Positions 6,507-49,355 of a stretch of DNA of 64,000 nt are shown piece after piece. Origin of the DNA: Marinobacter sp. (GTDB lineage Bacteria; Pseudomonadota; Gammaproteobacteria; Pseudomonadales; Oleiphilaceae); the NCBI RefSeq assembly GCF_041595835.1, contig NZ_JBFHJO010000002.1:78752-142751 (forward strand). Direction: 5' to 3'. The notes under the pieces were generated by a model. The model did not search any database. It was not told where the DNA came from and saw nothing but the letters and a program-made list of their open reading frames with translations. Position 1 is the first letter of the stretch, and each line of letters begins with the position of its first letter. The position numbers and the translations under genes were made by a program.

Positions 6507-6602
6507 TTTAGGTTCTTCCGTATGATTTGTTGTTCTTATGTTGCGCGCATCATATGACAAACGTGTGAAAGGCGCAAAAATACAGAGACAGGACAAGGTG
6601 AT

Positions 6603-7133: not shown

Positions 7134-7181
7134 CATAAAGGACTGAAATACGCTGCAAATGAATTGCACAGGGAGCACGTC

Positions 7182-7679: not shown

Positions 7680-7742
7680 TCGCGTTTCCGGAACCGGGTA
7701 CAACCAACACCAATTATCAATTACGTACTGAAGGGATGTGGT

Positions 7743-9224: not shown

Positions 9225-9227
9225 TCC

Positions 9228-9665: not shown

Positions 9666-9696
9666 ATCCGCCCGGAGTCAGACTGGTGCAGTATTT

Positions 9697-12449: not shown

Positions 12450-12466
12450 GGCAAGGAGCCGGAGAC

Positions 12467-15527: not shown

Positions 15528-15530
15528 ATC

Positions 15531-16352: not shown

Positions 16353-16361
16353 GGATATCAC

Positions 16362-19005: not shown

Positions 19006-19260
19006 CCTGGAGGCTTCCTGAATCGTAACGCACCGTGGGGGATAGCTTTCCAAAACCCTGCGGAGCCATGGGTGAAGGGTGAAAGCCCTTCACGGGTTGG
19101 CCAGGGATGGCTAAGACAGGACCCTCACTGCGACGCAGGAGCAGTAAGCAGTGAGGGCGGAGCGGAGCGTACAGGGATGTATTCACAGCGTGTTTTGGAA
19201 AGCCACCCCGCAGGATGCGCGGGCGACGAACTCCCAAGTAATCATTTTGGAAACAGAAAC
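19006..19260 (+). other. highly structured non-coding intergenic region (two perfect hairpins plus a long-range inverted repeat) between clpV and vasH
   Basis: Hairpins GTGAAGGG-tgaaag-CCCTTCAC (19072-19093) and CCCTCACTGC-N16-GCAGTGAGGG (19122-19157); TTTCCAAAAC (19047) vs GTTTTGGAAA (19192); CCTGCGG vs CCGCAGG. Confidence 0.6.
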
Positions 19261-20835
19261 ATGGGAAGGATGCAGAAGGAACTGCACACCGGCATCGATC
19301 TGGCCGTGGCACTGATCAAACAGGACACGCTGACAGCGCTGTTGGACACCGCCACCCGGCAACTCGAACATGCCTTCGGACTCAGCAAGTGCTGGGCGCT
19401 GGAACTCGACCTCAGCGGCCGGACCCTGCACTGCAGCAAACTGGACGAAGCGGGCGAGTTTGATTGTAACGACTTCAGCCACCCCTTCGCCCACGTGCTG
19501 CAGACAGGCCAGCCGAGGGAGCTCACCCGTGCTGCCAGCTATCGCCTGGACCATGCCGGCTTCCAGACGCTCCTGGAACTTAGTGGCCGCCCGAGAAGCT
19601 TCTGGCTGGAACCCCTCAAAGGCGAAGACGGCCGGACCCTTGGCATGCTTGTACTTTGCGGCGATCACCCTGACTGGCAAGGCATCGTTGCTCAGTCACT
19701 GTACAGCGGGCTCAAGCAGCTACTGGTGCATCAATGGATCAGCCAGTTGCAAACCCGTGATCAGGTGTGGCAACGGCGGCTGCTCAAGCGCTCCCTCGAC
19801 CACCTGCACGATGCTGAAAGCCTGCGCCAGCGCTGCAGGCAGCTGGCCTGCACCCTGGTGGGTGATTCCGAAGCCATGGCCAACCTCCGGGCCCAGGTGG
19901 TGCGTGCGGCGGGTAGCCAGCTGTCAGTGTTGATCCAGGGTGAAACTGGTTGTGGCAAAGACGTCGTTGCCCGAGGTATTCACGATATGTCTGACCGCGC
20001 CAGTGGGCCTCTGGTGGTGGTGAATTGTGCGGCCATTCCAGACACCCTGTTGGAGAGCGAATTGTTCGGTCACACCAAGGGCGCATTCTCTGGCGCGGAT
20101 CAAGCCAAAGATGGCCTGCTGGCCCAGGCCAATGGAGGAACCCTGTTTCTGGATGAAATCGGCGACATGCCTATGGCGTTGCAATCCAAACTGTTGCGAG
20201 TCCTCGAAAGCCGACAGTTCCGGCCTTTGGGAGCCCGGGAAGAGCAATATTCAGATTTTCGTGTGGTAGCTGCTACCCATCAGCCTTTGCAGCAGGGCAT
20301 CGAAGAGGGCGTGTTCCGTCGGGACCTGTTTTACCGCCTGAGCCAGTTCCCGCTACGTGTGACTCCGCTGCGTGAGCGGACCGAAGATCTGGAAGCTCTG
20401 AGTCGCCATTTCATTGGCTTATACACCGAGCGCGAAGGCAGTGGCCCTCTCGGTATCAGCAGTCACTCCCTGCATACGTTGGCAGGCTATAACTTTCCGG
20501 GCAACGTGCGGGAGTTGCGCAATATCATCGAACTCGCGTGCCTGCAAACCCCGGAGGGTGACGATATTCAGCCTGAAGCCTTAAGGCTCGATGATCCACT
20601 CTCGGATACCTGCCGGCCCATAAATGCTGAAGCAGAAGCTCACATCATGCCCGGTGTGCCGATGACCGACGAAATTCGTGACCTGAAAGCCGCGGCGCAG
20701 GCGTTTGAGGCAGCGATTATCCGAGATCGCCTGCGGCAATACAACGGCAACCGCGCACAAGCCGCCGAAAGCCTGGGTTTGCCCAAGCGTACCTTGGCCC
20801 ATAAATGTCTGAAGTATCAGGTAACCGACGTATGA
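19261..20835 (+). CDS. vasH: sigma-54-dependent transcriptional activator (VasH-like bacterial enhancer-binding protein)
   Basis: Central AAA+ sigma54-interaction domain (GETGCGKDVVARGIH, GAFSGA, ESELFGH, FLDEIGDMP), C-terminal Fis-type HTH, N-terminal GAF-like region; start taken at MGRMQKEL ATG 19261, not the ORF-track 19072. Confidence 0.9.
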   Translation: MGRMQKELHTGIDLAVALIKQDTLTALLDTATRQLEHAFGLSKCWALELDLSGRTLHCSKLDEAGEFDCNDFSHPFAHVLQTGQPRELTRAASYRLDHAGFQTLLELSGRPRSFWLEPLKGEDGRTLGMLVLCGDHPDWQGIVAQSLYSGLKQLLVHQWISQLQTRDQVWQRRLLKRSLDHLHDAESLRQRCRQLACTLVGDSEAMANLRAQVVRAAGSQLSVLIQGETGCGKDVVARGIHDMSDRASGPLVVVNCAAIPDTLLESELFGHTKGAFSGADQAKDGLLAQANGGTLFLDEIGDMPMALQSKLLRVLESRQFRPLGAREEQYSDFRVVAATHQPLQQGIEEGVFRRDLFYRLSQFPLRVTPLRERTEDLEALSRHFIGLYTEREGSGPLGISSHSLHTLAGYNFPGNVRELRNIIELACLQTPEGDDIQPEALRLDDPLSDTCRPINAEAEAHIMPGVPMTDEIRDLKAAAQAFEAAIIRDRLRQYNGNRAQAAESLGLPKRTLAHKCLKYQVTDV

Positions 20836-21473
20836 CCCTGAAAGAGAAAATCCAACATGGCCTGCTTGGTCTGGTGCTGTTGTTGGCGAGCAGCAGCAGC
20901 TTGGCTGATCTGCGTCTGAGCAGAGCGGAAACCTGCTCGAAAGAAGCCAACCGGCTGGCAAGGCTGGCCTGTTTTGATGAGGTGTTTGGCACACCACTGG
21001 CTCGCTATGAAGAAGGCACAAAGGCGGTGGTAATTCATCAATCTGAGCGCTGGCGCCAGGCTTTTGCACAGTCAGGTCATGATGACACCGGAGGCGTGAT
21101 TTATCGGAATACCGGCACAGTGGCCGGGCATCTTGTGACGGTTACGGCCCTGGGTACTCAGCCTCCACGGCCGGTGCTGACGCTGCAGTGCCATAACAAC
21201 ATCACCGAGCTGATGGTGATGCTACCCGAACCGACAGGCCTGGAGCGGGTTGACGTAACTCTGGGCTCGGAGCGCAGCCAATGGCGAGTGCGGGACGAAG
21301 GCTTAGTGGTAAGTGCCGGTAGAGGTCTGCCCGCCATTCGGCTGGTGTCGGGGGTAGCCAGCCAGCCCGACGCCAGAATTCACGCCAATGCACCGGAACT
21401 GGATGGTCTGTTGTTTGACCTGAGCGGCTATGAAGACGCTATCAAGCCGTTACGAAAAGCTTGCGGCTGGTAA
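20832..21473 (+). CDS. T6SS-associated secreted protein occupying the vasI position (signal peptide, ~213 aa)
   Basis: MTLKEKIQHGLLGLVLLLASSSSLA signal peptide; ATGA coupling to vasH stop; location between vasH and tssA identical to V. cholerae vasI. Confidence 0.6.
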   Translation: MTLKEKIQHGLLGLVLLLASSSSLADLRLSRAETCSKEANRLARLACFDEVFGTPLARYEEGTKAVVIHQSERWRQAFAQSGHDDTGGVIYRNTGTVAGHLVTVTALGTQPPRPVLTLQCHNNITELMVMLPEPTGLERVDVTLGSERSQWRVRDEGLVVSAGRGLPAIRLVSGVASQPDARIHANAPELDGLLFDLSGYEDAIKPLRKACGW

Positions 21474-21485
21474 GGAGGGAGCCTC

Positions 21486-22931
21486 ATGCAGTTAATCGAA
21501 CAGCATCCTTACGTCGATCAAATACTCACCGCTATTCCGGGAGATTCCAGTACCGGTGGTAGTCTTGAAGATGACTGCGTACTGGAATTTCTGGAAGACG
21601 AAGTAAGGAAAGTAGGCTCGCTGGCCCACAACGACATCAACTGGAACAGGGTTGAAAGCGAATCGCTGCAACTGCTGGCAGATCGTAGCAAAGATATCAA
21701 AGTGCTGGGTTTCCTGATGTTGGCCTTGCAGCGGGGCGGCGATGGTGAGCGCTTTGCCTTGTCCCTTTACGTGCTGCACCGGGTGCTGGATGACTGGTGG
21801 GAAAAGGCCTGGCCCTTTCCCGGCGCAAAGGGCCAACGGGCTCGTAAAATGTTGTTTAACCAGATGTTGCAGAGGGCATTGAAAAGCGTCGAAGGTTTGG
21901 ACTTTGACGCCAGCGTAGGCGACGGACGTCAATTTTGTCTGGATCTGATTAGCAAACTCGATGACCAGGCGAAACAGCGAGGCCTGCCGGATGACCCGCT
22001 GTTTGATTTAAAACGGGCGGTAGAGAAACTGCCGAAACCGGATCAGGACGCCAATAACCCGATGCCCTCTGATGCTGAGACAGACAGTGTGGCCAGTACT
22101 CAGGTCGCACCGACGGCCAAACAACCTACTTCCAGTACGGCCTCTGCTGCTTTGGGGAGTCTCACTCTGGACCCGGGCAATGAGCGGGCTACCCGCCAGA
22201 GTTTACTGAAAGTTGCGGAATGGCTGACCAGTATCGAGCCAGGCAACCCGCTGGGTTACCAGGTTCGCCGTTATGCCATCTGGCAGAGTATCACCAGCCT
22301 GCCTCCAACCCGGGATGGCAAACGTACAGATTTGGCTGCTGTCAGCGCAGACCGGGTAGCGGATTACAAAGAAGCGCTGGATAAATTGCCAGATAACCAG
22401 TTGTGGCAACGCATTGAGCAGAGTTTATCGGTAAGTCCGTTCTGGCTGGACGGCCACTGGCTGAGCGCTCGCGTGGCCCAGGCTTTAGGTAAAAGCCGTT
22501 GTGCTGAAGCAATCAGGGAAGCCTTGAAGGCTTTTGTTGAACAGTTGCCGCAATTGGCAGAGTTGACCTTCAATGACCAAACACCGTTTCTCAGTGAAGA
22601 GGCTGCGGAATGGATGCACACGGTTCCCGTTTCAGCCGGGGCCAGTGGTGGTGGAACCAATCCCTGGGAGCAGGCGCTGGATAGCGCCCTCGAATTGGCG
22701 CAGAAAAACAAGTTGTCATCTGCGTTGGAACTCCTGGAACAGGGGCTGGCCGATGCCCGGGAGCCTCGGGAGCAATTCTACTGGCGTCTGGCTATTGCAA
22801 AGCTGATGAAAGAAACCGGCCTGAAAGCCATGGCGGCACAACAGATTCAGGATCTGCAGGGGCAGGTTCGCGGGCTGATTCTCGAAAACTGGGAACCAGG
22901 CCTTATCAAACAAATGGAACGACTGGCGTAA
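21486..22931 (+). CDS. tssA: T6SS protein TssA (ImpA N-terminal domain, VasJ-like)
   Basis: 481 aa; ImpA_N-type N-terminus (HPYVDQILTAIPGDSSTGGSLEDD...). Confidence 0.9.
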   Translation: MQLIEQHPYVDQILTAIPGDSSTGGSLEDDCVLEFLEDEVRKVGSLAHNDINWNRVESESLQLLADRSKDIKVLGFLMLALQRGGDGERFALSLYVLHRVLDDWWEKAWPFPGAKGQRARKMLFNQMLQRALKSVEGLDFDASVGDGRQFCLDLISKLDDQAKQRGLPDDPLFDLKRAVEKLPKPDQDANNPMPSDAETDSVASTQVAPTAKQPTSSTASAALGSLTLDPGNERATRQSLLKVAEWLTSIEPGNPLGYQVRRYAIWQSITSLPPTRDGKRTDLAAVSADRVADYKEALDKLPDNQLWQRIEQSLSVSPFWLDGHWLSARVAQALGKSRCAEAIREALKAFVEQLPQLAELTFNDQTPFLSEEAAEWMHTVPVSAGASGGGTNPWEQALDSALELAQKNKLSSALELLEQGLADAREPREQFYWRLAIAKLMKETGLKAMAAQQIQDLQGQVRGLILENWEPGLIKQMERLA

Positions 22932-22955
22932 CGCCCGTCCGCATTAAACGCAGGA

Positions 22956-25900
22956 ATGGATACCATGTGGAGAAAAGCATTACTCATTGGACGTTGGCTT
23001 CTGCCGTACCTCCGGAACGCTGCTCCGGTTGTTCTCGTGTTGAGCCTTATTGCCCTGCTGGTGGCAACCTGGTGGCTTGGCCCTCGCCTGGAAATTAATG
23101 ATGAATACCCTTTGGTTGCCTGGCAAATGCGGGCTCTGGTTACCCTTGGAGTGATTCTGTTGGTCGTGATGTTCTGGGGCATGGCCCTGGCTCGTCGCTT
23201 GGGTAAGGTCAACAAGGCCAAGGCCGCTGAGCAACAGGAGCAGGAAGATCCGATTCTGCCCATGGAGCGGCGGCAGCAACGCCTGCTCGACCGGCAGTTG
23301 CAGGCACTAAAAAGCAATTTGCCCGGTCGCAAAGGGCTGTATCGCTTGCCCTGGTATCTGGTGATGGGGCTGGAAGATGCCGGTAAAACCAGCTTGATTC
23401 AACGTTCGGGGCAAACCTACACACTAACCAATGTCACCCGTAACAATCGGAGAGAGCGTAACCCCTTTGGTTTTGATTGGTGGATTGGTGACCACGGCGT
23501 ACTGATTGATCCGGATGGTGAGCTGCTGAGTCAAAACCAGGGCGAAGGTGCCACGAGCGAAATTCAGAATCGGTTGTGGAACCACTTTATCGGCTGGCTG
23601 GAACGCAGCCGGCCGCAACGTCCTCTGAACGGTATTATTCTGGCTGTAGATTTGGCTCGACTGAGCGCCGAGGGCGATCAGCAACGTCAAGCCCAGGCGA
23701 TTCTGCTGCGGACGCGCGTGCGGGAATTGATGGAGCAACTAGGCTCACGCCTGCCAGTGTATGTCACCTTCACGAAAATGGACCTGCTGTACGGTTTTAC
23801 GCCTTTTGTTCGCACCTTGTCGAAGCTGGAAAAAGAGAAAGCACTTGGCTTTACTTTCCGGCTGGAGAGCCAGCAAGACCATGACCAATGGCTTGAGCAG
23901 TTTGCTGACCGATATGCACAAATGGTGGACGAGTTAAGCCAGCGCTTACCGGATGTACTTTCAGATACCCGAGATCCCGAAGAACGGGCTGCCGTATATT
24001 CGTTTACCCGTCAACTGGCCGGGCTTAAGCCGGCCATTGAGCAATTTCTCAGTGACCTGCTGTCAGCCGATGCCTTTTCAACCCCGGCCCTGGTCCGAGG
24101 TTCCTATTTCACCTCCGTTCTTCAGGAAGGTGTGCCGGAAGATGCCTTTGTGGCTGCAGCGGCCCGCAATTACCAGATCAGCAGCCCCATTCAACCGGCC
24201 CAGCGCAGTGGGCAGTCTGTCAGCTTGTTTACCAAAGATCTGTTTCCTGAAGTAATTTATCGGGAAGCAGGATTGGCCGGTGACAATCGCAAGGTTGTGA
24301 TCAAGCGCCGCAGGAAGGTTGCGTTCGCGGCTATGGTTGCCCTTTGTGCCGGAGCTGGCATAACTGCCGGCTGGCAGCACTATTTTATCAAAAATGCTGA
24401 AGCCGCTGTCCAGGTGGAAAACCGGGTTAACTCCTTCCTCAACAACTGGCAGCCTGTGGGTTACGAGCCAGACAGTACTGGCCGAAACCTGCTCCAGCCA
24501 CTGGATGAACTGCGGGAAGCCACGCTGGCTTTCGGCGACTACCGCAAGGAATGGCCGTTGGTCACCGATATGGGACTGTATCAGGGCCATAAAGTCGGGC
24601 CGGAAGTTGATACAGCCTATCTGGACATGCTGGCCTATCAATATCTGCCGACTTTGATGTTCGGTGTGATGGAAGAAATGGGCCAGGCACCCGACAACAG
24701 TACGGAACGGCTGGAGCACTTGCGAGTGCTTCGCATGATGTACGATGAGAGCGGGCGTCGCAGCGATATTGTCTTTGCGTACATGCGGGAATACTGGCAA
24801 GTTCGATTCCCCGGTCAGCGGGATGTGCAAAATCGCCTGTACAGCCATTTACAGTACGCCATGACCCATACCAATCTGGCTGGAATGGCTGCAGAAGGTG
24901 ACCAGGCTGCAATTATGGCGCTGGCACCGTTCCGCAGTAGTGTTCAGTGGGCGCAGCATGAACTGGGTCGCATCAGTACACCGGACCGCGTTTACCAGGA
25001 TCTGGAGGCAGAAGCGCGCCGGGAATTGCAGTCGCCTCTGGAGTTGGCGCGCAGTTCGGGCCCGGCATTTTCCACCGTGTTCACCCGAGTTGATGCATAT
25101 GGGGAACCACTTGCCGGAGAACTACCAACTGAAGAGGACCCCATCGCAATCGATATGTTGTTGACGCGAGAGGGGCTGGAGAAGTGGTTCCTGCGTAAAT
25201 CTGGCTCTGTGACCGAGTTGGCGCTGGTTGATGCCTGGGTGCTTGGGCGCCGGAATGACGTTGACTTCAGTAAAGCGGACGAAGCTGAATTACTGGCCAG
25301 CCTGCAAACCCTGTATGCAGAGAACTACGCAAACACCTGGCGCACTGCGCTGAGTCGAGTCGACATTCACCGGTTTACAGATCTCAATCATGGGGTGCGT
25401 ATTCTGGAAAGCCTCACCAGCGGCCACCAACCGTTGGCCCGCTTTTTAGGTGAGATTCAGAATAATACTCGCCTGATTCCTGTGGGTGAGGGCGAAGCCG
25501 AAATAGCCCGGAAGCTGCTTGAGGAGTCACCTCATTTCAGAATGCTCCAGGATATCGAGCGCCAGTTTGATGAACTGAATCAGTTAACGCGAAAACAAGG
25601 TGATCATCCGACGGGGCTGGATGAAATTATGGTGGTGGTCACGGAACTGCACGAATATATGCGCAGTATTCAGGAGTCGCCGGATGCTGGTAAAGCAGCA
25701 CTGAGCGCAGCGCGAGCGCGCATGGGGCTTCAGGGTGCAGACCCTATATTCACTTTACAGCGCATGGCAGGCCATCAGCCAGAGCCGTTGAACCGCTTGT
25801 TGAATCGCCTTGCGACCGAGAGCTGGCGGGTTGTGCTTGATAAGGCTGTGGCTCAGCTTGAGCGAGAGTGGTACAGGGAGGTGTATCAGCCATTCCAGCA

Positions 25901-26549
25901 GAATCTGGCTCGCCACTACCCATTTGCCTCCGAAGCGGGTCGGGACGCTGCCCTGCAGGATTTTGAGCGATTTTTCGCACCGGACGGCATACTGGAAAAC
26001 TTCTACAACGACAACCTGAAACTGTTCCTGGAAGATCACCCTGAACAGGTGGGCGATGCCCGTAAAGCAAGCCTGGTGCGTCGGGATGTACTTGCTGCAC
26101 TGAACCGGGCACGACAGATTCGCCAGGCGTTCTTTACGCGAAGCGGAACTCTGGATGTAGAGTTTGCATTGGAGCCTTTGAACCTCTCCAATAATAAGCG
26201 CCGAGCCGTTGTCAATCTTGATGGCCAACTGGTGGAGTTCTCTCATGGGCCGCGCCAGAGCATACCTTTGGTATGGCCCAATACCTTGCGGGATGCGGTA
26301 GAAAGCCGAATTACTTTGGTGCCGGTACAGGTCAACCGTTCGCCCAGGAGTATTTCGGAAAATGGCCCCTGGGCATTGTTCCGGTTGTTGGATAAAGCAG
26401 ATATCACTGGCGTCAGTAGTAACGCGGTGGACGTGATGTTCAAAGTGGATGATGGCGAGATGCGTTACCGCCTGCATGCGGCCAGTAATACCAACCCGTT
26501 CACACAGCAGCTACTTGCAGGCTACCGAATTCCCCGCAGCTTGTATTAA
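22956..26549 (+). CDS. tssM: T6SS membrane-complex subunit TssM (IcmF/VasK)
   Basis: 1197 aa; N-terminal TM helices, P-loop GLEDAGKTSLIQRSG, IcmF-related C-terminal region. Confidence 0.95.
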   Translation: MDTMWRKALLIGRWLLPYLRNAAPVVLVLSLIALLVATWWLGPRLEINDEYPLVAWQMRALVTLGVILLVVMFWGMALARRLGKVNKAKAAEQQEQEDPILPMERRQQRLLDRQLQALKSNLPGRKGLYRLPWYLVMGLEDAGKTSLIQRSGQTYTLTNVTRNNRRERNPFGFDWWIGDHGVLIDPDGELLSQNQGEGATSEIQNRLWNHFIGWLERSRPQRPLNGIILAVDLARLSAEGDQQRQAQAILLRTRVRELMEQLGSRLPVYVTFTKMDLLYGFTPFVRTLSKLEKEKALGFTFRLESQQDHDQWLEQFADRYAQMVDELSQRLPDVLSDTRDPEERAAVYSFTRQLAGLKPAIEQFLSDLLSADAFSTPALVRGSYFTSVLQEGVPEDAFVAAAARNYQISSPIQPAQRSGQSVSLFTKDLFPEVIYREAGLAGDNRKVVIKRRRKVAFAAMVALCAGAGITAGWQHYFIKNAEAAVQVENRVNSFLNNWQPVGYEPDSTGRNLLQPLDELREATLAFGDYRKEWPLVTDMGLYQGHKVGPEVDTAYLDMLAYQYLPTLMFGVMEEMGQAPDNSTERLEHLRVLRMMYDESGRRSDIVFAYMREYWQVRFPGQRDVQNRLYSHLQYAMTHTNLAGMAAEGDQAAIMALAPFRSSVQWAQHELGRISTPDRVYQDLEAEARRELQSPLELARSSGPAFSTVFTRVDAYGEPLAGELPTEEDPIAIDMLLTREGLEKWFLRKSGSVTELALVDAWVLGRRNDVDFSKADEAELLASLQTLYAENYANTWRTALSRVDIHRFTDLNHGVRILESLTSGHQPLARFLGEIQNNTRLIPVGEGEAEIARKLLEESPHFRMLQDIERQFDELNQLTRKQGDHPTGLDEIMVVVTELHEYMRSIQESPDAGKAALSAARARMGLQGADPIFTLQRMAGHQPEPLNRLLNRLATESWRVVLDKAVAQLEREWYREVYQPFQQNLARHYPFASEAGRDAALQDFERFFAPDGILENFYNDNLKLFLEDHPEQVGDARKASLVRRDVLAALNRARQIRQAFFTRSGTLDVEFALEPLNLSNNKRRAVVNLDGQLVEFSHGPRQSIPLVWPNTLRDAVESRITLVPVQVNRSPRSISENGPWALFRLLDKADITGVSSNAVDVMFKVDDGEMRYRLHAASNTNPFTQQLLAGYRIPRSLY

Positions 26550-26552
26550 ACT

Positions 26553-26774
26553 GTGTCCCGTCGCCCGGGTATGTGTGCCCGGGTTGGCGGGAGCCGGCAC
26601 CGGGAAACCGACCTTCAGTTTCTGGAACGACTGGCCGCCGAAGAAGGCTGGCACTACCGCTACCAGCACGGCGACACCCCGAAACTGGCCCCGGTCACTC
26701 GAGTGATTATTATGGATCGCATAGCTACCGTTCTGACTCGATTCCCGAGCAAAGCAATCAGACTCAGGAGCTAA
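26553..26774 (+). pseudogene. vgrG: vgrG remnant (internal fragment of the gp27-like region only)
   Basis: ETDLQFLERLAAEEGWHYRYQHGDT matches the conserved VgrG segment (S/TDLxFLxRLLEEEGIYYYFEH); no start, gp5-like or C-terminal parts; surrounding frames broken. Confidence 0.6.
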
Positions 26775-26993
26775 ACCGAACCGGATGAATCTTTCTATCG
26801 GTTGATCAACCTTCTTCTTGCTGCCACCACCAACCGCGAAGACGTACTGGCGCAATATGAACGAAGAAGACTACAAAGCCTTCATTCCCCGTTTGTGACC
26901 GGCGTTTTATTGGGGAGGGTGATCAAATGCCTACGCAACATGCCCCCGAACTGGCTAAAATGTGCCAATGTATCAATGCAGAGATCACACGTG

Positions 26994-27437
26994 ATGAAAG
27001 GCTTTATAGTTCTCGTTCTATTGTTGGTGGCTTCCGTCGCCCAAGCAGAAGCCTATCGCTGGGTTGATGAGAGCGGCCAGACCCACTTTGGTGATCGGCC
27101 TCCTGCGAATGCTGTTTCCAGTGAGGTGCAGCTGGAAACAGCACAGCCAGCGGTGGATGCGGCTGCCAGTGAGCGCAAACAGCGGATGATCGAATTTGTC
27201 GCGCAAAGCGAAAAAGAACGTGCGGTTCGAAAAAAAGTCCGGGCCGAGCAAGAGGCCCAGGCAGCCGAGCGGGAAGCTCGGTGTGAGGGCCTGATAGCGC
27301 GCATGAAACACCTTGAGAGAGTGTCCCGCCTCTACAGATTAAATAAGGATGGCGAGCGTGTTTTCGTTGACGATGAGGAAAACGAAAGGATCCGTAAGGA
27401 GTTTCGGGCGCGCGTCCGGAATGAGTGCGACATTTGA
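26994..27437 (+). CDS. DUF4124-family periplasmic protein
   Basis: Signal peptide then AEAYRWVDESGQTHFGDRPP (DUF4124 hallmark) and a charged coiled-coil tail; start at MKGFIV (ATG 26994), not the upstream ORF-track extension. Confidence 0.7.
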   Translation: MKGFIVLVLLLVASVAQAEAYRWVDESGQTHFGDRPPANAVSSEVQLETAQPAVDAAASERKQRMIEFVAQSEKERAVRKKVRAEQEAQAAEREARCEGLIARMKHLERVSRLYRLNKDGERVFVDDEENERIRKEFRARVRNECDI

Positions 27438-27464
27438 ATCTGCTTCCGCCTGCATCGCAGGTTT

Positions 27465-28559
27465 TCACCTTTGTACCACAGCCTCCGGCCCGTTCAGCAT
27501 GGCGATCAACGGATTTTTCCGGAAGATGTAATCTCTGAGCAAATAACCTAGCAAAAGTCCGAGCATAAACCCGCCCAGGTGTGCCGCCCAGGCCACGCCG
27601 CCCTGTGCAGTGAACATGCCGAACAGGTTAATCAGGCTCCAGATCAGGAAGTACCAGTGGGGTGCGAGTTTTTTCTGGTAAATGATGATCATGAAAGTAA
27701 GGCTGGCGTGGCGGAACCACATCAGATACAGGCCGAAAAGAGCCGCAATCGCACCGCTGGCGCCAACCAGCAGCAAAGGGCCCTGGCTGCTGTCGAATAC
27801 CAGTAATTCGATCAACGCTGCCACCGCTCCCATGAACAGGTAGAGCCCCAAAAAGGCACTATGGCCCAGGGCATCTTCAAGATTGTCGCCAATAATCCAT
27901 AGGAAATACATGTTGCCGGCCAGATGCATCAGGCCACCGTGGACGAACTGGTAGGTCAATAGTTGCAGGGCAAAGTGTATGGGGCTTTGGGTCTCTGAGT
28001 TCAGCGCCAGGTTCAGGAAAATCCATTCATTCGCTGCCGGTGACAGCAGGCCAGTGCCGAAAATCAGGCCACACAAAACAACCAGCGTTCGCGTAACCCA
28101 GGGGGTTCGATGGGGCTGTATGTTGTACTCCACCGGCATAGCCGTCAGAAACTGGAATAACCAGGACTTCCAGGTCACTTTCTGATTCAAGGTTGTTAGG
28201 GCCTGCTTCAGCCTGGGTGAGTGCATGACCTGATCTATTTCATGTTTATCGAGCCAGACACCATCACAGTCCGGGCAGCAGTCGATTTCAGTAGTGTAGT
28301 GCGTAAGTAACTGATAGTGGGTCATCGGTACCCGGCAACGCCTGCACAAGCGGTCGCTGGTGCGAAGGGCTGGGCCGAGATGAAGCTCGTGACTGTACTG
28401 TTCTATAAACTCGTGCTGCTGTGCAATGGCCTGGTTCAGTGATCCGTCTTCAAACCAGACGCCGTGGCAGTGCCGGCAGTTAAGTATGGCCGGGTTGCTG
28501 GTAGGCGTCAGGCTGCCAATCGTGCAGGAAGGACAAAGTTTAGCGTGTGTTCTGGGCAT
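27465..28559 (-). CDS. rhomboid-family intramembrane serine protease with two N-terminal zinc-ribbon modules
   Basis: N-terminal CPSC...CRHCHGVW and CRRC...CPDCDGVWLD zinc ribbons; C-terminal 6-TM rhomboid core with GASGAIAALFG (catalytic Ser) and AHLGGFMLG (catalytic His). Confidence 0.85.
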   Translation of the reverse strand: MPRTHAKLCPSCTIGSLTPTSNPAILNCRHCHGVWFEDGSLNQAIAQQHEFIEQYSHELHLGPALRTSDRLCRRCRVPMTHYQLLTHYTTEIDCCPDCDGVWLDKHEIDQVMHSPRLKQALTTLNQKVTWKSWLFQFLTAMPVEYNIQPHRTPWVTRTLVVLCGLIFGTGLLSPAANEWIFLNLALNSETQSPIHFALQLLTYQFVHGGLMHLAGNMYFLWIIGDNLEDALGHSAFLGLYLFMGAVAALIELLVFDSSQGPLLLVGASGAIAALFGLYLMWFRHASLTFMIIIYQKKLAPHWYFLIWSLINLFGMFTAQGGVAWAAHLGGFMLGLLLGYLLRDYIFRKNPLIAMLNGPEAVVQR

Positions 28560-28633
28560 GAAATCCTTTTCCTGATTCAGCGGAGGCTTCGGTGTCTGTT
28601 CCGGAGCCTGTAGAAATAAGTGGTCCGTATGGG

Positions 28634-28963
28634 TTAGTCAGATTCTGTCAGGTAGTTGTGGGCAAAGGCCTGTAAGTCCTCTGAGACACGCTGACGAATG
28701 GTCGCCCGGTCTTGCGGAGCAAGGTTATACTTCCGGGCCAGCAGTTCGAAGTCTTCGTCCTTGAGGGTAATGGTCAGCCGGGGGCGGGCTCTGCCTTTAC
28801 GATAGGGCAGCTGGAGAACCTTGCGTACCATATCGGCGGTGCTCATATCCTGCATGGCAGCAGACACCCGGAAAGCTCTTTGAATATCGTTGGAGAGGTC
28901 GAAGGCCATTTGTACGGCCTGAACCGCCTGCTCTTCTTTTGACCAATCCGGTTTGTTTGCCAT
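28634..28963 (-). CDS. hypothetical small protein, possible ribbon-helix-helix DNA-binding fold
   Basis: 109 aa; segment RPRLTITLKDEDFELLARKYNL resembles an RHH beta-strand/helix; immediately downstream of the PspA-family gene. Confidence 0.5.
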   Translation of the reverse strand: MANKPDWSKEEQAVQAVQMAFDLSNDIQRAFRVSAAMQDMSTADMVRKVLQLPYRKGRARPRLTITLKDEDFELLARKYNLAPQDRATIRQRVSEDLQAFAHNYLTESD

Positions 28964-28971
28964 GAGTATAA

Positions 28972-28994
28972 CCTGAGGGTTATGCCCCCGGCAT
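28972..28994. other. perfect GC hairpin ATGCCCCCG-gcatg-CGGGGGCAT between the PspA-family gene and the small gene (attenuator/terminator candidate)
   Basis: 9-bp perfect stem; T-rich run only on the plus-strand side. Confidence 0.35.
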
Positions 28995-29009
28995 GCGGGG
29001 GCATCGATT

Positions 29010-29705
29010 TTATTGTGCGGACTTATCTTTGAGGCGAGCTAGTACGCTATTTACAGCGTCTTGTTCGCCATCAATGCCGGCAGCTTTCAGCTTTTCGTCC
29101 AGATCGGCACCGGTCAGCTCTTTTTCAAGGCTGGCGTTGGCGGTTTGTCGATCTTCTTCCCGGGCCTGGCGCTCACGGATGCGCTCCAGAGTTTCTTTGG
29201 CGGTGCTCAGGGAGGATTGTTGACTGTTGATGTTGGTGTCAATCTGGGCGGTGGTGCGCAGCACACGCTCGTTGGTTTTCACCACTTGCAGTTCCCTGCG
29301 ATAGTCACCCAGTTGTTTCTCTGCGCGTTGTACTCGCTCTTTCAGCCCTGCAATTCGCTGTTGCAGCAATTCCCGGGTCTGAGTCAGTTCTGCGGCACGG
29401 CGTTCATGGCCAACAATGCGTTCGGCGACTTCTCTGGCCAAATCTTCCTGACCGGCAGCGATGGCCTTGCGGGCATCTTGCTCTCGTTTGCTGGAGCTGT
29501 CTTGTTCAGAGCGAATCTGGCGTGCTAAAGATGCTGATTCAGCCATCAGTCCGGCAAGCTCATGTTTGGCTTGTTTCAGCTCTTGCTCAGCATCGCGTAG
29601 TTCCTGTTCCAGAATACGGTTGCCCTGGTTATCCACTACGGCTTCACCCAGTTCGTTAACGCCACCGCGCATAGCGGTCAGAATCTTTTTCAGTACGGAT
29701 CTCAT
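29010..29705 (-). CDS. PspA/IM30 (ESCRT-III-like) family protein, YjfJ-like
   Basis: 231 aa all-helical coiled coil; N-terminus MRSVLKKILTAMRGGVNELGEAVVD...ILEQELRDAEQEL typical of PspA/IM30; size and partner gene match E. coli yjfJ. Confidence 0.8.
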   Translation of the reverse strand: MRSVLKKILTAMRGGVNELGEAVVDNQGNRILEQELRDAEQELKQAKHELAGLMAESASLARQIRSEQDSSSKREQDARKAIAAGQEDLAREVAERIVGHERRAAELTQTRELLQQRIAGLKERVQRAEKQLGDYRRELQVVKTNERVLRTTAQIDTNINSQQSSLSTAKETLERIRERQAREEDRQTANASLEKELTGADLDEKLKAAGIDGEQDAVNSVLARLKDKSAQ

Positions 29706-29719
29706 GTCTCAGCCCTCAT

Positions 29720-30124
29720 TTAAGCCAGGTAGTCTTCAAATGTCTGTAACAGGTCGATGGCATTTTCGGCCAGTGTGACCAGTTCCTGCATGATTTCGGC
29801 TGTGCCGGAGGTTGGGCTGAGAGCGCCATATACCACATAGTGGTCCCCGGTTTTACCGAGAGAGCTTAGTGGCATGGGAACGCTGATGCGTAGCATGTTT
29901 TCATGCAGGTCCTGTATGCGCTCCGGGTTCAGTTCCTGTTCATTAAAAAGATACGCAAGACACAGAATCTGCGTGTCGGTTACGGTAACGTACACCGGTG
30001 TTTCTTCTGCCCCGGAAACGGTTACTTGCAGTACCGGTTCATCCCCGGAAATGGGCATAACGTCGAAGGTTCGGCCTGCATGGGTAGCGTCTCCCAGGGC
30101 CAGGGTGAGAGTTTGAATATCCAC
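29720..30124 (-). CDS. YjfI-like small cytoplasmic protein (DUF2170-like), partner of the PspA-family gene
   Basis: 134 aa, 14-nt spacing to the downstream PspA-family gene, same order and sizes as E. coli yjfI-yjfJ. Confidence 0.55.
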   Translation of the reverse strand: MDIQTLTLALGDATHAGRTFDVMPISGDEPVLQVTVSGAEETPVYVTVTDTQILCLAYLFNEQELNPERIQDLHENMLRISVPMPLSSLGKTGDHYVVYGALSPTSGTAEIMQELVTLAENAIDLLQTFEDYLA

Positions 30125-30327: not shown

Positions 30328-30954
30328 ATGGAAACATTCTTCATTGTAGCTTTCTCTTTTCCAACGGTGGTTTTTTCCGTTCTATTGTGTGTAGCCATTA
30401 TTTATTGGCTGATCTCTCTGCTTGGTATGGGGGATATAGACGCAGACGGTGAAATTGACGCCAGTGGCGACTTTAGCGGCCTGATGGTGACTCTGGGGCT
30501 TCAGGGTGTACCGCTTCCGCTGGTGCTGACGCTTTTGTTCCTGTTTGGCTGGCTGGCCAGTTATTTTATGGATCTTATTTTCGGTGCGCTTGTTCCCGGT
30601 AGTGTGTTGCACTGGCTATTTGGAATTGTCGTTATTTTTGTGGCACTGGTGGTTGGTGTGCTGACTACCGCGGTTGTTGTTCGTCCGCTCAGGCCCCTGT
30701 TCCGTCGCGCATTCTTACCGCCGCTTCAAAAGCGAATTATCGGTACTCCCTGTGTCGTGCTTTCTTCAACGGTGACTGAAACCTCTGGCAGGGGTGAAAG
30801 TATTCTTGATGGTGCTCATCTGGTGCTTCAGATTCGCAGCCATTCGCCGTTGTCCCATCGGGATAGGGCCGTCATTATTGAACATATTCCGGAACACAAT
30901 GCCTGGTGGGTGGTCCCGGAATCGGAATTTCATTCCGGTGATTCTGCCGGATAA
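30328..30954 (+). CDS. NfeD/YqiJ-like inner-membrane protein (TM region plus C-terminal OB-fold), flotillin partner
   Basis: 208 aa; hydrophobic N-terminal two-thirds, C-terminal beta-rich domain (GTPCVVLSSTVTETSGRGESILDGAHLVLQI) typical of NfeD-type partners of SPFH proteins. Confidence 0.7.
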   Translation: METFFIVAFSFPTVVFSVLLCVAIIYWLISLLGMGDIDADGEIDASGDFSGLMVTLGLQGVPLPLVLTLLFLFGWLASYFMDLIFGALVPGSVLHWLFGIVVIFVALVVGVLTTAVVVRPLRPLFRRAFLPPLQKRIIGTPCVVLSSTVTETSGRGESILDGAHLVLQIRSHSPLSHRDRAVIIEHIPEHNAWWVVPESEFHSGDSAG

Positions 30955-30998
30955 CGCTGACTTAATCTCCCTTTCAACCAGCTCAGGAGAATTGCTAA

Positions 30999-33002
30999 AT
31001 GGATTTATCGTGGATGATGCCGGCACTGATGACCGTTGGTGTTCTGGTCTTGCTGATACTGGGTGTGCTTACCCTGTTCAAAGCGTTCTATCGTAAAGTA
31101 GATCAGGGCCAGGCACTGATTGTGAACGACCTTTCGCCAACGCCGAAGGTGTACTTCACCGGTGCCATGGTGTTGCCGGTTATCCACCGCGCCGAGACCA
31201 TGAAAATCTCGGTTATCACACTGGAGTTGAACCGTACTGGCAAGGAAGGGTTGATCTGTAAAGATAATTTGCGGGCGGATATCACCGTTGCTTTCTATCT
31301 GCGTGTGAATGAAACCCCGGAAGATGTTCTTCGGGTTGCCAAGTCGGTTGGAGTTGGTCGTGCTTCAGACCGTGATGCGGTGAACGAGTTGTTCAACGCC
31401 AAATTCAGTGAAGCGCTGAAAACCGTGGGTAAGAAGCTGGAGTTTATGCAGCTGTTTGAAGAGCGCCAGCACTTCCGTGACTCCATCATTGAAACCATTG
31501 GTGAAGACCTTAACGGCTATATCCTTGAAGACGTAGCTATCGATTACCTGGAGCAGACGCCAAAAACGTCGCTGGATCCGAACAACATTCTGGATTCCGA
31601 GGGCATCAAGCGGATTACTGAAATTACGGCATTCCATAATGTCGAGACGAACCGCTTAGAGCGTGATCAGGAACTGGAAATTCAGCGCAAGAACGTATCT
31701 GCCCGTGAAGCCTCGCTGGAGCTGGAGCGCAGTCAGGCTGATGCGGAAGCTCGTCAGCGCCGCGAAATTGAAACCCTGCAGGCTCGTGAAACGTCGGAAA
31801 CTGAGCAGGTGCGCGAACAAGAACGAGCCCGGGCTGAAGCTGCTCGCATCAAGACCGATGAGGAGCTGGCCATTGCGGAAGAGAACAAGCAGCGCCAGAT
31901 TGAAATGGCACAAAAAGCCCGTGAACGTGCGGTACAGATTGAAGAAGTACGGATTCGCCAGGCTCGCGAACTTGAAGATGTAAACCGTGAACGTGCGGTT
32001 GAAATCGAGCGGATTGGTATGGAAAAAGCGCTGGAAGGTGAGCGCAAAGAAATTGCCGACATCACCAGCCAGCGGATTGCGGTTGAGCGCAACGTGGCGG
32101 AAGAGGAAGAGAACATCAAGGATGTTCGCAACCGTTCCGAAGCTGAGCGTTTGAAAGTTACGAAAGTGGTGGCGGCTGAAGCCGATGCGGATGAACTGAA
32201 ACTGAAGGATGTGAAAGCCGCAGAAGCCGCGTTTGAACGCTCTAAACTGGAAGCAGAACAGATTCGTGTTACGGCGCAGGCGGAGCTGGATGCCGCTGAG
32301 AAGCAAGCCATCGCTGATGAAAAACGGGCTCGTGGTCGTCAGGCTATGTCTGCTTCTGACGGGTTGGCTGAAGCACAGGTTCGAGAAGCTCAGGCCTCTG
32401 CCATTCGTGCGGATGGCCTGGCCCGTGCCGAGGTTAAAACCGCCACAGCCAAAGCGGATGAAGACGCTGGTATGGCGGAAGTTCGAGTGCTGGAACAGCG
32501 GCTTGAAACGGAAGCTATGGGTGAAGAGAAGCTGGGTCTGGCGAAGGCCGATGCCCGTAAGGCCATGGTTCTGGCTGAGGCCGAAGGTGAGGAGCGTATG
32601 GGCCATGCGAAAGCGGAAGCCCGTGAAGCTATGGCGAAGGCTGAAGCTTCTGGCTTGGTAGAAAAACTGAAAGCGTACGATGGAATGTCTGAAGAAGCCC
32701 GTCACTTTGAAGAATTCCGTATGAACCTGGAAGTTCATGAGAAAGAAGTAATGGCCAGGATTGAAGCTCACCAGACGGGCATTCTGGAAAATGGCCGGGT
32801 AATGGCTGCCGCATTGAAGGATGCCAAGTTTGAAATGATCGGTGGTGATGGCGGTATCTTCGAGAAGTTCGCCCAGGGAATGGGTTATGGCAAGAGCGTA
32901 CAGGGCGTCCTGGACAAAAGCCCATCGCTACAGGCTGCTTTAGCGGGCATTGCCGGGCGGGTTGCGGGTGACAAGTCCGGCGATACCTCTGAGTCGGCTT
33001 AA
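30999..33002 (+). CDS. flotillin-family SPFH/band-7 protein with long Ala/Glu-rich coiled-coil (YqiK-like)
   Basis: N-terminal TM plus SPFH domain, then ~400 aa of EA-rich heptad repeats. Confidence 0.85.
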   Translation: MDLSWMMPALMTVGVLVLLILGVLTLFKAFYRKVDQGQALIVNDLSPTPKVYFTGAMVLPVIHRAETMKISVITLELNRTGKEGLICKDNLRADITVAFYLRVNETPEDVLRVAKSVGVGRASDRDAVNELFNAKFSEALKTVGKKLEFMQLFEERQHFRDSIIETIGEDLNGYILEDVAIDYLEQTPKTSLDPNNILDSEGIKRITEITAFHNVETNRLERDQELEIQRKNVSAREASLELERSQADAEARQRREIETLQARETSETEQVREQERARAEAARIKTDEELAIAEENKQRQIEMAQKARERAVQIEEVRIRQARELEDVNRERAVEIERIGMEKALEGERKEIADITSQRIAVERNVAEEEENIKDVRNRSEAERLKVTKVVAAEADADELKLKDVKAAEAAFERSKLEAEQIRVTAQAELDAAEKQAIADEKRARGRQAMSASDGLAEAQVREAQASAIRADGLARAEVKTATAKADEDAGMAEVRVLEQRLETEAMGEEKLGLAKADARKAMVLAEAEGEERMGHAKAEAREAMAKAEASGLVEKLKAYDGMSEEARHFEEFRMNLEVHEKEVMARIEAHQTGILENGRVMAAALKDAKFEMIGGDGGIFEKFAQGMGYGKSVQGVLDKSPSLQAALAGIAGRVAGDKSGDTSESA

Positions 33003-33010
33003 AAAGCCCA

Positions 33011-33050
33011 TGGCACCGCTGCTTCTTAAGAGAGTGGTGCCAGTTTTTAT
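33011..33050 (+). terminator. putative Rho-independent terminator after flotillin gene
   Basis: TGGCACC-N18-GGTGCCA stem followed by GTTTTTATT. Confidence 0.5.
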
Positions 33051-33085
33051 TCAAGTTCCTCTCCCCCAGTTCAGGAAGATTTGGT

Positions 33086-45124: not shown

Positions 45125-45229
45125 GCTTTGTTCCTGCTGTCTGGTAAGATTCGGAAATCCTACCTTTGAGGGTCTGGTTAATGCTAGTGCCGCGTCAGGT
45201 AAACTTAAGAACGATATGGAGTAAGGTTA

Positions 45230-46008: not shown

Positions 46009-46014
46009 GCTGTT

Positions 46015-49352: not shown

Positions 49353-49355
49353 AGC

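What the first reader, a model, noticed from the sequence alone, without database searches (positions are those of the whole stretch)
26553..26993. vgrG stump directly after tssM marks a deleted or decayed effector module
The conserved gp27-like VgrG motif ETDLQFLERLAAEEGWHYRYQ is present, but only about 70 codons survive. They are flanked by out-of-frame debris and about 200 bp of non-coding sequence before a DUF4124 gene. In the V. cholerae template this position holds vasL, vgrG-3 and its immunity gene. The scar suggests that this lineage lost the cis-encoded spike/effector, which is a snapshot of T6SS effector-module turnover.
Basis: partly seen in the sequence, partly recalled or inferred. 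Interest (0 to 1): 0.6.

Follow-up and report, generated by a model that had tools for sequence, protein, structure and literature searches.

The report
Decayed T6SS vgrG–effector–immunity module scar
The 444 bases between the last core gene of a Marinobacter type VI secretion cluster and the next gene are the shredded remains of a spike, toxin and antidote gene cassette of about 7 kb that related species still carry intact; this is a clear but ordinary case of weapon-gene turnover.

Summary
The VgrG motif HRETDLQFLERLAAEEGWHYRYQ lies at 26598-26666, directly after tssM. It matches Pfam Phage_GPD (E=1.7e-6, just under the gathering score) and is 94-96% identical in DNA to intact Marinobacter vgrG genes.

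The interpretation of a decayed spike/effector module is supported, with four corrections.
- Only 34 VgrG codons survive (about residues 150-172 and 190-200), not 70. The 73-codon ORF, annotated as WP_372964275.1, is a chimera of spacer, vgrG and out-of-frame immunity-gene DNA.
- The "debris" can be identified. It is an N-terminal piece of a putative immunity gene, a 13-codon piece of a large effector, and two C-terminal pieces of a second immunity gene. The conserved DUF4124 upstream region follows from 26881.
- All seven junctions sit at 4-11 bp microhomologies, which points to stepwise illegitimate deletions.
- The right template is not V. cholerae vasL/vgrG-3/tsiV3. It is vgrG, a DUF4123 adaptor, a large effector and immunity gene(s), found after tssM in 44 of 72 informative Marinobacter species.

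All 14 core T6SS genes in the window are intact, so the machine probably fires with spikes encoded elsewhere (not testable here). A recombination breakpoint near 26433 in tssM suggests the cassette had been exchanged between species before it decayed. This is a known phenomenon and the interest is low.

The parts
22956..26549 (+). tssM (vasK/icmF), intact, 1197 aa. It is the last core gene of a T6SS cluster arranged as in V. cholerae (tssB at 7164 through tssM). From about 26433 to the stop it is a recombinant tract.
   Evidence: Four IcmF Pfam domains at full length. Nucleotide identity to L003/L004/L007/L008 is 0.72-0.83 along the gene and 0.94-0.95 in the last 115 bp or so. dN/dS is 0.02-0.04.
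26551..26597 (+). Retained 5' part of the tssM-vgrG intergenic spacer. It forms a strong GC-rich hairpin just after the tssM stop.
   Evidence: 46 of 47 bases identical to L012 (M. nauticus DSM 50418). Folded as RNA: -36.5 kcal/mol, z=-3.7. A hairpin of different sequence occupies the same place in L054 (read by eye from the sequence printed).
26553..26774 (+). Spurious 73-codon ORF, annotated in RefSeq as hypothetical protein WP_372964275.1. It is a chimera of spacer, two vgrG pieces and an out-of-frame immunity-gene piece.
   Evidence: Singleton cluster among about 15 billion proteins. Composition shown.
26597..26666 (+). vgrG piece A, encoding (H)RETDLQFLERLAAEEGWHYRYQ, about residues 150-172 of a 707-aa VgrG. 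Junction J1 lies in GCACC at 26597-26601 and removed about 502 bp: the rest of the spacer, the ribosome-binding site, the start codon and codons 1 to about 149.
   Evidence: 94-96% nucleotide identity to L012, L014 and L008. Imperfect direct repeat GCACC[C/G]GGA at both ancestral sites. Pfam Phage_GPD positions 123-161.
26667..26698 (+). vgrG piece B, encoding HGDTPKLAPVT, about residues 190-200. Junction J2 lies in CACGGC at 26667-26672 and is an in-frame 51-bp deletion of 17 codons (HGSVDGEEQPALIIADH).
   Evidence: In 11 of the 13 intact alleles compared, piece B starts 121 bp after the start of piece A. In the window it starts 70 bp after. Repeat ACCA[G/C]CACGGC at both ancestral sites.
26699..26785 (+). 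N-terminal piece of a putative immunity gene of the L004b/L057 type, encoding DYYGSHSYRSDSIPEQSNQTQELNRTG. Junction J3 at about 26698-26700 removed the rest of vgrG, the adaptor and an effector (several kb).
   Evidence: 88% amino-acid identity to L004 19441-19518 and 70% to L057. Weaker matches to four more paralogues at the same N-terminal position.
26778..26816 (+). Piece of the C-terminal region of a large DUF4123-associated effector, encoding EPDESFYRLINLL. Junction J4 lies at CCGGA, about 26781-26785.
   Evidence: 85-92% amino-acid identity to the L003 and L007 effectors. Homologous positions also match in the L074, L080, L051 and L004 effectors. blastn 33/39, E=1.4e-5. Junction shown.
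26805..26861 (+). Piece of a second putative immunity gene of the L054/L003/L007 type, about residues 253-271 of 338, encoding INLLLAATTNREDVLAQYE. Junction J5 lies at about 26806-26816 and removed about 1.3 kb.
   Evidence: 89% nucleotide identity and 74% amino-acid identity to L054 18376-18432.
26845..26886 (+). Second piece of the same immunity gene, about residues 312-324, frame-shifted, encoding YWRNMNEEDYKAF. Junction J6 lies at ACTGGC, about 26846-26851, and removed about 120 bp. Junction J7 lies at TTCA, about 26881-26884, and joins to the conserved flank.
   Evidence: 87% nucleotide identity and 85% amino-acid identity to L054 18553-18592. Right-flank homology with F3R11 starts at 26881.
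26881..26993 (+). Conserved non-coding region upstream of DUF4124. It is the right border of the variable module slot.
   Evidence: Colinear with Marinobacter sp. F3R11 (L081 8385-8497). The same blastn alignment continues to 33000 at 83.7% identity.
26994..27437 (+). DUF4124 gene, 147 aa, with a hydrophobic N-terminus that looks like a signal peptide (read by eye). It is the first intact gene after tssM and the usual right neighbour of the module in relatives.
   Evidence: Pfam PF13511 E=2.4e-14. It follows the module in 12 relatives and follows tssM directly in L068 and L069. 86% ortholog in F3R11.

Best explanation
The interval 26550-26993 is a non-functional scar of a T6SS cargo cassette that once lay between tssM and the DUF4124 gene. 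The cassette held vgrG, a DUF4123 adaptor, a large effector, and at least two genes of the family I call putative immunity genes, with an older effector's 3' part between them.

Seven deletion or recombination junctions, each at a 4-11 bp microhomology, reduced about 7 kb to 284 bp of gene pieces (26597-26880). This is the signature of RecA-independent illegitimate recombination or replication slippage.

Nothing in the scar is expected to work. vgrG has lost its ribosome-binding site, its start codon and 95% of its codons. Every effector and immunity piece is 13-27 codons long.

The 14 core T6SS genes upstream are intact and under purifying selection. The apparatus most likely still fires using VgrG, Hcp and PAAR encoded elsewhere in the genome.

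Before it decayed, the cassette had been exchanged between species by homologous recombination, with a crossover in the last 115 bp or so of tssM.

Shown: the identity and order of the pieces, the junction sequences, the intact templates in relatives, and the identity jump in tssM. Inferred: the order and timing of the deletions, the history of two effector-immunity generations, spikes supplied from elsewhere, and the immunity role of the 338-393 aa genes (assigned from their position only).
For: - VgrG profile hit, and blastx or tblastn to VgrG of about 45 relatives.
- Piecewise colinearity with intact loci, and the exact junctions.
- Intact cassettes after tssM in 44 of 72 informative Marinobacter species, including the closest TssM relatives L001 and L002. 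Their gene content was checked with Pfam: Phage_GPD, base_V and Gp5_C for VgrG, then DUF4123, then VasX_N in L014 and F3R11.
- Relatives show the same turnover. L038 has effector 3' remnants in front of an immunity gene of another type. Second or further immunity-family copies lie downstream in L004 and L057. L056 and L080 have frame-shifted copies, and L054 and L074 have immunity-gene fragments. This matches the model published for V. cholerae (PMC5361080).
- The right flank is colinear with F3R11, where a full VasX-type cassette sits upstream of the orthologous DUF4124.
- An independent Logan contig is 100% identical to 26731-29802, which covers J4 to J7.
- Core genes match their Pfam models at full length. 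dN/dS for the tssM 3' end is 0.02-0.04.
- The identity jump at about 26433.
- The scar is not repeated elsewhere in the window, has no Rfam match above the gathering score, and has no sigma-70-like promoter.
Against: - No genome of the same species was available. TssM identity to the best relative is 93% or less, and lineage-specific k-mers were absent from the metagenome collection. The immediate intact ancestor, and so the order of the deletions, cannot be reconstructed.
- The N-terminal immunity piece lies upstream of the effector piece. This needs either two effector-immunity generations or a rearrangement.
- Junctions J1 to J3 rest on one assembly only. The Logan contig starts at 26731.
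- The Pfam score is slightly below the gathering threshold, as expected for a fragment of about 40 aa.
- The remnant differs from the nearest intact allele at only 5 of 102 bases, within the range seen among intact alleles. Age cannot be estimated from that.
- Whether other vgrG, hcp or PAAR genes exist in this genome is unknown.
Confidence: 0.88

Rival explanations
1. Assembly artefact. vgrG is multi-copy, so the assembler, possibly working on a MAG, collapsed or mis-joined repeats. The real genome would then have an intact cassette here. The identity jump at 26433 could likewise be a chimeric join between two co-occurring strains.
For: 17 of 44 relatives' contigs break inside vgrG, so vgrG is a repeat that troubles assemblers. 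The record is an unnamed 'Marinobacter sp.'. The Logan contig from SRR29257459 ends at 26731, inside the scar.
Against: Repeat-induced misjoins happen at shared sequences of k-mer length or longer. They do not happen at seven successive microhomologies of 4-11 bp that join pieces of four different genes in the correct 5'-to-3' order. The independent Logan contig reproduces J4 to J7 exactly. Synteny on both sides is normal. A chimeric join at 26433 would not change the reading of the scar.
Confidence: 0.04
2. The decay did not happen in this lineage. An already shredded scar, or part of it, was imported with the recombinant tract that begins near 26433, replacing whatever was there before.
For: The sharp identity jump at about 26433 shows that DNA from there on has a different history from the rest of tssM. 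The right flank from 26881 is closest to yet another lineage, F3R11.
Against: None of the 80 species loci or the metagenome contigs carries the J1 junction. The donor-like genomes L003, L004, L007, L008 and L012 all have intact vgrG. This rival alters only where the decay took place, not what the sequence is.
Confidence: 0.08
3. The remnant has been put to new use. The 73-aa ORF could be a small protein (a VgrG-derived peptide), or the retained hairpin and spacer could act as a terminator or promoter that now controls DUF4124.
For: RefSeq calls the ORF a protein. A very stable hairpin directly follows the tssM stop, and a hairpin sits at that position in relatives too. DUF4124 is now only 444 bp from tssM on the same strand.
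Against: The ORF is a singleton with no homologue beyond the vgrG motif. Its GTG start lies inside the hairpin, and I saw no Shine-Dalgarno sequence in the bases before it. Two thirds of it are translated spacer or out-of-frame DNA. No sigma-70-like or sigma-54-like promoter was found in the scar. The hairpin is part of the normal tssM 3' flank and not a product of the decay.
Confidence: 0.03

Closest known systems
Turnover of T6SS effector-immunity modules with orphan immunity arrays in Vibrio cholerae (Kirchberger et al. 2017, PMC5361080)
   Same: The variable cargo region lies at the 3' end of a conserved T6SS gene set. Older immunity genes and effector 3' ends are retained downstream of newer modules, as seen in relatives L038, L004 and L057 and in miniature in the window. 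Homologous and illegitimate recombination are the inferred mechanisms.
   Different: In the window nothing was retained intact. vgrG, the adaptor, the effector and both immunity genes are all reduced to pieces of 11-27 codons. It is complete disarmament of the slot, not displacement. The genus is also different (Marinobacter).
V. cholerae Aux-2 type cargo cassette (vgrG-2, vasW [DUF4123 adaptor], vasX, tsiV2)
   Same: The intact Marinobacter templates have vgrG, then a DUF4123 gene, then a large effector, then putative immunity gene(s). The effector is VasX_N-positive in L014, L052, L057 and F3R11.
   Different: In Marinobacter the cassette is attached directly to tssM of the main cluster. The effector type whose pieces survive in the window (the L003/L007/L054 family) has no Pfam domain. 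The window has no DUF4123 remnant.
   Same: The core genes from vipA to vasK are in the same order as in V. cholerae (the V. cholerae order is from my own knowledge). A vgrG lies downstream of tssM.
   Different: Relatives have no gene between tssM and vgrG; the spacer is about 100 bp. Their VgrG has only gp27/gp5 domains in Pfam, with no peptidoglycan-degrading extension. The effector is a separate gene that goes with an adaptor.
Displaced C-terminal tips and 'orphan' toxin/immunity strings in Rhs and CDI loci
   Same: Strings of partial 3' toxin pieces with immunity genes, produced by illegitimate recombination at a conserved 5' anchor (cited in PMC5361080).
   Different: No Rhs or CdiA repeats are present. 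The anchor here is tssM/vgrG, and the pieces are far too short to be expressed again.

Membership tests
VgrG / TssI (functional T6SS spike) | gp27-like N-terminal domain (Pfam Phage_GPD PF05954) present at roughly full length and above the gathering score | tested here: not met
   Only profile positions 123-161 of 305 match, at 27.9 bits against a cut-off of 30.1. 34 codons survive, with an internal deletion of 17 codons.
VgrG / TssI (functional T6SS spike) | gp5-like OB-fold (PF04717) and C-terminal beta-helix (PF22178) | tested here: not met
   Both are present in the relatives' VgrG (L004). They are absent from the window: tblastn with full-length VgrG matches only the fragment starting at VgrG residue 149 (window 26595 onward), and nothing else in the 64 kb.
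VgrG / TssI (functional T6SS spike) | Own start codon and ribosome-binding site, with an open frame of about 650-710 codons | tested here: not met
   J1 removed the rest of the spacer, the ribosome-binding site, the ATG and codons 1 to about 149. The whole tssM-DUF4124 gap is 444 bp.
Sequence derived from a vgrG gene (pseudogene fragment) | Nucleotide-level homology and conserved position relative to intact orthologous loci | tested here: met
   94-96% identity over 70 bp and 88-94% over 32 bp, in the same position directly downstream of tssM.
DUF4123-adaptor T6SS cargo cassette (vgrG, adaptor, effector, immunity) | DUF4123 (Tap/Tec) adaptor gene | tested here: not met
   No DUF4123 match in the window. 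The gene is present in relatives.
DUF4123-adaptor T6SS cargo cassette (vgrG, adaptor, effector, immunity) | Intact effector and cognate immunity gene | tested here: not met
   Only a 13-codon effector piece and immunity pieces of 27, 19 and 13 codons remain.
Orphan immunity array (sequential displacement model) | At least one intact immunity gene lacking its effector at the 3' end of the cluster | tested here: not met
   No intact immunity-family ORF lies between tssM and DUF4124. Arrays do exist in relatives L004, L057, L038 and L056.
V. cholerae large-cluster 3' end (vasL, vgrG-3, tsiV3) | vasL-like gene between tssM and vgrG, and a VgrG with a C-terminal peptidoglycan-hydrolase extension | tested here: not met
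   In relatives vgrG starts about 80-120 bp after tssM in most loci, with no ORF between. VgrG shows only GPD, base_V and Gp5_C in Pfam.
Complete T6SS core apparatus (i1-type, V. cholerae-like) | tssA, B, C, E, F, G, J, K, L, M and clpV intact | tested here: met
   Full-length Pfam matches for all of them, plus fha, vasH and vasI.
Complete T6SS core apparatus (i1-type, V. cholerae-like) | hcp, vgrG and PAAR present somewhere in the genome | not testable with these tools
   I found none in the 64-kb window. PAAR was not searched for. The rest of the genome is not available.

The most novel reading that the evidence does not exclude
In 284 bp the scar may record two successive effector-immunity generations, followed by complete disarmament of the main-cluster cargo slot while the machine stays intact. 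The conserved tssM 3' end with its hairpin on the left, and the DUF4124 upstream region on the right, could act as fixed homology arms. Marinobacter lineages would then repeatedly load, swap and empty this slot across species boundaries. That would make the locus a tractable natural system for measuring the rate and mechanism of T6SS arming and disarming.
Probability: 0.25. Interest if true: 0.4.

Novelty: new member of a known kind. Interest (0 to 1): 0.22.

Why it matters
The finding has four modest uses.
- It corrects a RefSeq annotation. WP_372964275.1 is a pseudogene chimera, not a protein.
- It shows that the main T6SS cluster of this Marinobacter carries no spike or toxin of its own. 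Any killing phenotype must depend on cargo loci elsewhere.
- It gives a finely resolved example of how a cargo cassette is erased: seven microhomology junctions, and pieces from four genes.
- It documents that the variable slot between tssM and DUF4124 is a hotspot of exchange and decay across the genus. This extends the V. cholerae model to another marine genus.

It does not reveal a new mechanism.

Tried and rejected
- **PDB sequence search with the 73-aa ORF.** Only a marginal hit (E=0.95) to a 674-aa 'cytoplasmic protein' chain, aligned over the same ETD..FL.RL motif. Too weak to use.
- **Word-indexed protein search with the fragment.** It found only the fragment itself and one 104-aa VgrG fragment.
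- **Exact look-ups of the 73-aa ORF and of TssM in the contig index.** Neither is on record.
- **Two metagenome scans for the same lineage.** One used the J1 junction 24-mer and one a lineage-specific tssM 22-mer. Both gave zero hits, so no sister strain or intermediate stage could be recovered.
- **Functional-element scans of the scar.** The two Rfam matches are far below their gathering scores (E about 0.1). There is no sigma-70-like promoter, no convincing sigma-54 -24/-12 element, and no repeat of the scar elsewhere in the window.
- **Was the 51-bp gap allelic variation?** I considered this and rejected it. In 11 of 13 intact alleles piece B starts 121 bp after the start of piece A, against 70 bp in the window.
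- **Does F3R11's cassette match the window's effector and immunity pieces?** It does not. It is a different, VasX-type cassette.
- **PADLOC on neighbouring genes of unknown function.** Nothing relevant.

Full report
**Context**

The window is from a Marinobacter sp.. Positions 7164-26549 on the + strand carry a complete T6SS core cluster in the V. cholerae order. The genes are tssB, tssC, tssE, tssF, tssG, fha, tssJ, tssK, tssL, clpV, vasH, vasI, tssA and tssM. All match their Pfam models at full length. The V. cholerae order is from my own knowledge.

- tssM ends at 26549.
- The next intact gene is a 147-aa DUF4124 protein. It starts at ATG 26994 and has a hydrophobic N-terminus that looks like a signal peptide.
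- The finding concerns the 444 bp in between.

**Observation**

Frame 1 from GTG 26553 reads VSRRPGMCARVGGSRHRETDLQFLERLAAEEGWHYRYQHGDTPKLAPVTRVIIMDRIATVLTRFPSKAIRLRS*.

- It hits Pfam Phage_GPD (PF05954) at profile positions 123-161 of 305, with E=1.7e-6 and 27.9 bits against a gathering score of 30.1.
- It hits VgrG of about 45 Marinobacter loci by blastx, with E down to 1e-12.
- RefSeq annotates the ORF as hypothetical protein WP_372964275.1. It is a singleton among about 15 billion proteins.
- A full-length VgrG query matches nothing else in the 64 kb.

**Templates in relatives**

I fetched 80 Marinobacter species loci using the TssM C-terminus.

- Of 72 loci with enough downstream sequence, 44 have vgrG right after tssM, in most about 80-120 bp downstream. 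In 17 of those the draft contig ends inside vgrG, as expected for a multi-copy gene.
- Where the contig continues, the order is vgrG (about 707 aa; GPD, OB-fold and gp5 beta-helix), a DUF4123 adaptor, a 1150-1375 aa effector, and one or more genes of 338-437 aa. The effector is VasX_N-positive in L014, L052, L057 and F3R11 and has no Pfam domain in L003, L004, L007 and L054. I call the 338-437 aa genes putative immunity genes from their position only.
- A DUF4124 gene follows the cassette in 12 loci. It follows tssM directly in L068 and L069.
- The remaining 26 species have unrelated genes after tssM, such as an OmpA-like protein or a DNA ligase.
- The closest TssM relatives, L001 and L002 (93% amino-acid identity), retain vgrG.

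**Anatomy of the scar**

| Window coordinates | What it is | Best match |
|---|---|---|
| 26550-26596 | 5' part of the tssM-vgrG spacer, forming a hairpin | 46/47 identical to L012 |
| 26597-26666 | vgrG, about residues 150-172 | 94-96% nt identity to L012, L014, L008 |
| 26667-26698 | vgrG, about residues 190-200 | 88-94% nt identity |
| 26699-26785 | N-terminal motif of an immunity-family gene (DYYGSHSYRSDSIPEQSNQTQELNRTG) | 88% aa to L004 19441-19518, 70% to L057 |
| 26778-26816 | effector C-terminal-region piece (EPDESFYRLINLL) | 85-92% aa to L003 and L007, also four further effectors at homologous positions |
| 26805-26861 | second immunity gene, residues about 253-271 of 338 | 89% nt to L054 |
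| 26845-26886 | same immunity gene, residues about 312-324, frame-shifted | 87% nt to L054 |
| 26881-26993 | conserved region upstream of DUF4124 | colinear with F3R11 |

- The hairpin folds at -36.5 kcal/mol with z=-3.7.
- J1, within GCACC at 26597-26601, removed about 502 bp. It lies between imperfect repeats GCACC[C/G]GGA.
- J2, within CACGGC at 26667-26672, is a 51-bp in-frame deletion. It is specific to the window: in 11 of 13 intact alleles piece B starts 121 bp after the start of piece A, against 70 bp here.
- J3, at about 26698-26700, jumps several kb into the N-terminal motif of an immunity-family gene.
- J4 lies at CCGGA, J5 at AACC..CTTCT (about 1.3 kb removed), J6 at ACTGGC (about 120 bp removed) and J7 at TTCA.
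- From 26881 the window is colinear with Marinobacter sp. F3R11 at 83.7% identity, in one blastn alignment that runs to 33000.
- In F3R11 a complete cassette lies directly upstream of the orthologous DUF4124 (86% amino-acid identity). It comprises vgrG, DUF4123, a VasX_N effector, a 440-aa gene and a 538-aa gene.

All 444 bp are therefore accounted for. Only 34 codons derive from vgrG.

**Mechanism**

Every junction sits at a short direct repeat. This is the hallmark of illegitimate, slippage-type deletion and not of site-specific excision. Several events are required.

The order of the pieces is immunity N-terminus, then effector C-terminal region, then immunity C-terminus of a different type. 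This is most simply explained if the ancestor already carried two immunity genes with an older effector's 3' part between them. Relatives show that arrangement:
- L038 has effector 3' remnants in front of an immunity gene of another type.
- L004 and L057 have second or further immunity-family copies downstream.
- L056 and L080 have frame-shifted immunity copies, and L054 and L074 have immunity-gene fragments.

It is also the arrangement described for V. cholerae (PMC5361080). The two-generation history is inferred.

**Exchange between species**

- Nucleotide identity of tssM to relatives is 0.72-0.83 over 3.5 kb. Synonymous sites are saturated and dN/dS is 0.02-0.04.
- From about 26433 the identity to L003, L004, L007 and L008 jumps to 0.94-0.95, and the spacer is 98% identical to L012.
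- This marks a recombination crossover in the 3' end of tssM. The cassette region has a different and more recent history than the core cluster. A chimeric MAG join cannot be fully excluded.
- The vgrG remnant differs from the nearest intact allele (L014) at 5 of 102 bases. That is inside the nearest-neighbour range of intact alleles (3-18), so there is no measurable extra decay.

**Artefact check**

An independent Logan contig (SRR29257459) is 100% identical to 26731-29802 and reproduces J4 to J7. J1 to J3 rest on one assembly. Microhomologies of 4-11 bp are far below assembler k-mer sizes, and the pieces are in correct gene order.

**Function**

None is expected for the scar.
- There is no promoter-like site, no Rfam match above the gathering score, and no copy of the scar elsewhere in the window.
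- The annotated ORF starts inside the hairpin.
- The intact core genes, still under purifying selection, suggest that the apparatus is still used with spikes encoded elsewhere. This could not be tested.

**Verdict**

The corrections concern the number of surviving codons, the source of the debris and the appropriate template. This is a well-resolved instance of a known phenomenon in a genus where it has not been described, as far as one literature search showed. It is not a new kind of system.

Noticed in passing
window 26551-26597; same position after the tssM stop in L012, L008, L014, L054: A very stable GC-rich hairpin (-36.5 kcal/mol, z=-3.7) directly follows the tssM stop codon and has no U-tail. 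L054 has a hairpin of different sequence at the same place (read by eye), which suggests a conserved intercistronic structure (a transcript-stabilising or attenuating element?). Deletion J1 ends exactly at its 3' foot.
   Followed up: partly
window 26433-26549 (3' end of tssM): There is a sharp change in nucleotide identity to the M. litoralis-group loci, from about 0.78 to about 0.95. This marks a recombination crossover inside tssM. Across many species pairs the last 114 bp of tssM are more conserved than the preceding 600 bp, so this may be a recurrent anchor for exchange.
   Followed up: partly
L081 (Marinobacter sp. F3R11, QOCH01000013.1) and L050 (same genome, QOCH01000015.1): In F3R11 the block homologous to the window from 26881 to at least 33000 (DUF4124, rhomboid, pspA and onward into the DUF3686 gene) sits behind a vgrG/VasX cassette on one contig. 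tssM lies on another contig and is followed, after about 2 kb, by homologues of window 45184-52850. This is a rearrangement or island difference whose breakpoint is at the vgrG slot.
   Followed up: partly
L073 (MAG S6_bin.69), 85-2687 bp after tssM: This looks like another partly decayed cassette. vgrG matches in three pieces with internal losses, and the effector matches only at residues 1-34 and 996-1094. It may be an intermediate stage of the same process, or a MAG assembly problem.
   Followed up: no
window 26994-27437 and 12 related loci: A small DUF4124 gene with a hydrophobic N-terminus is the usual right-hand neighbour of the T6SS cargo cassette in Marinobacter, and it follows tssM directly in L068 and L069. 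Whether it has any role in the T6SS is unknown.
   Followed up: partly
window 6195-6596 (- strand), just upstream of tssB: A 133-aa ORF carries only the N-terminal SAM-like domain of a phage-type integrase (PF13495). It is probably a truncated integrase marking the left edge of the T6SS island. The adjacent 155-aa ORF at 5716-6183 has no Pfam or PADLOC match.
   Followed up: no
window 30328-38338 (+): A conserved trio: a 208-aa and a 667-aa protein with no Pfam or PADLOC match, then a 1750-aa protein with DUF3686, DUF7902 and AAA domains. The trio is syntenic in F3R11. Function unknown.
   Followed up: partly
window 26553-26774: RefSeq protein WP_372964275.1 ('hypothetical protein') is a mis-called chimeric pseudogene fragment. 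It should be annotated as a vgrG pseudogene remnant.
   Followed up: yes
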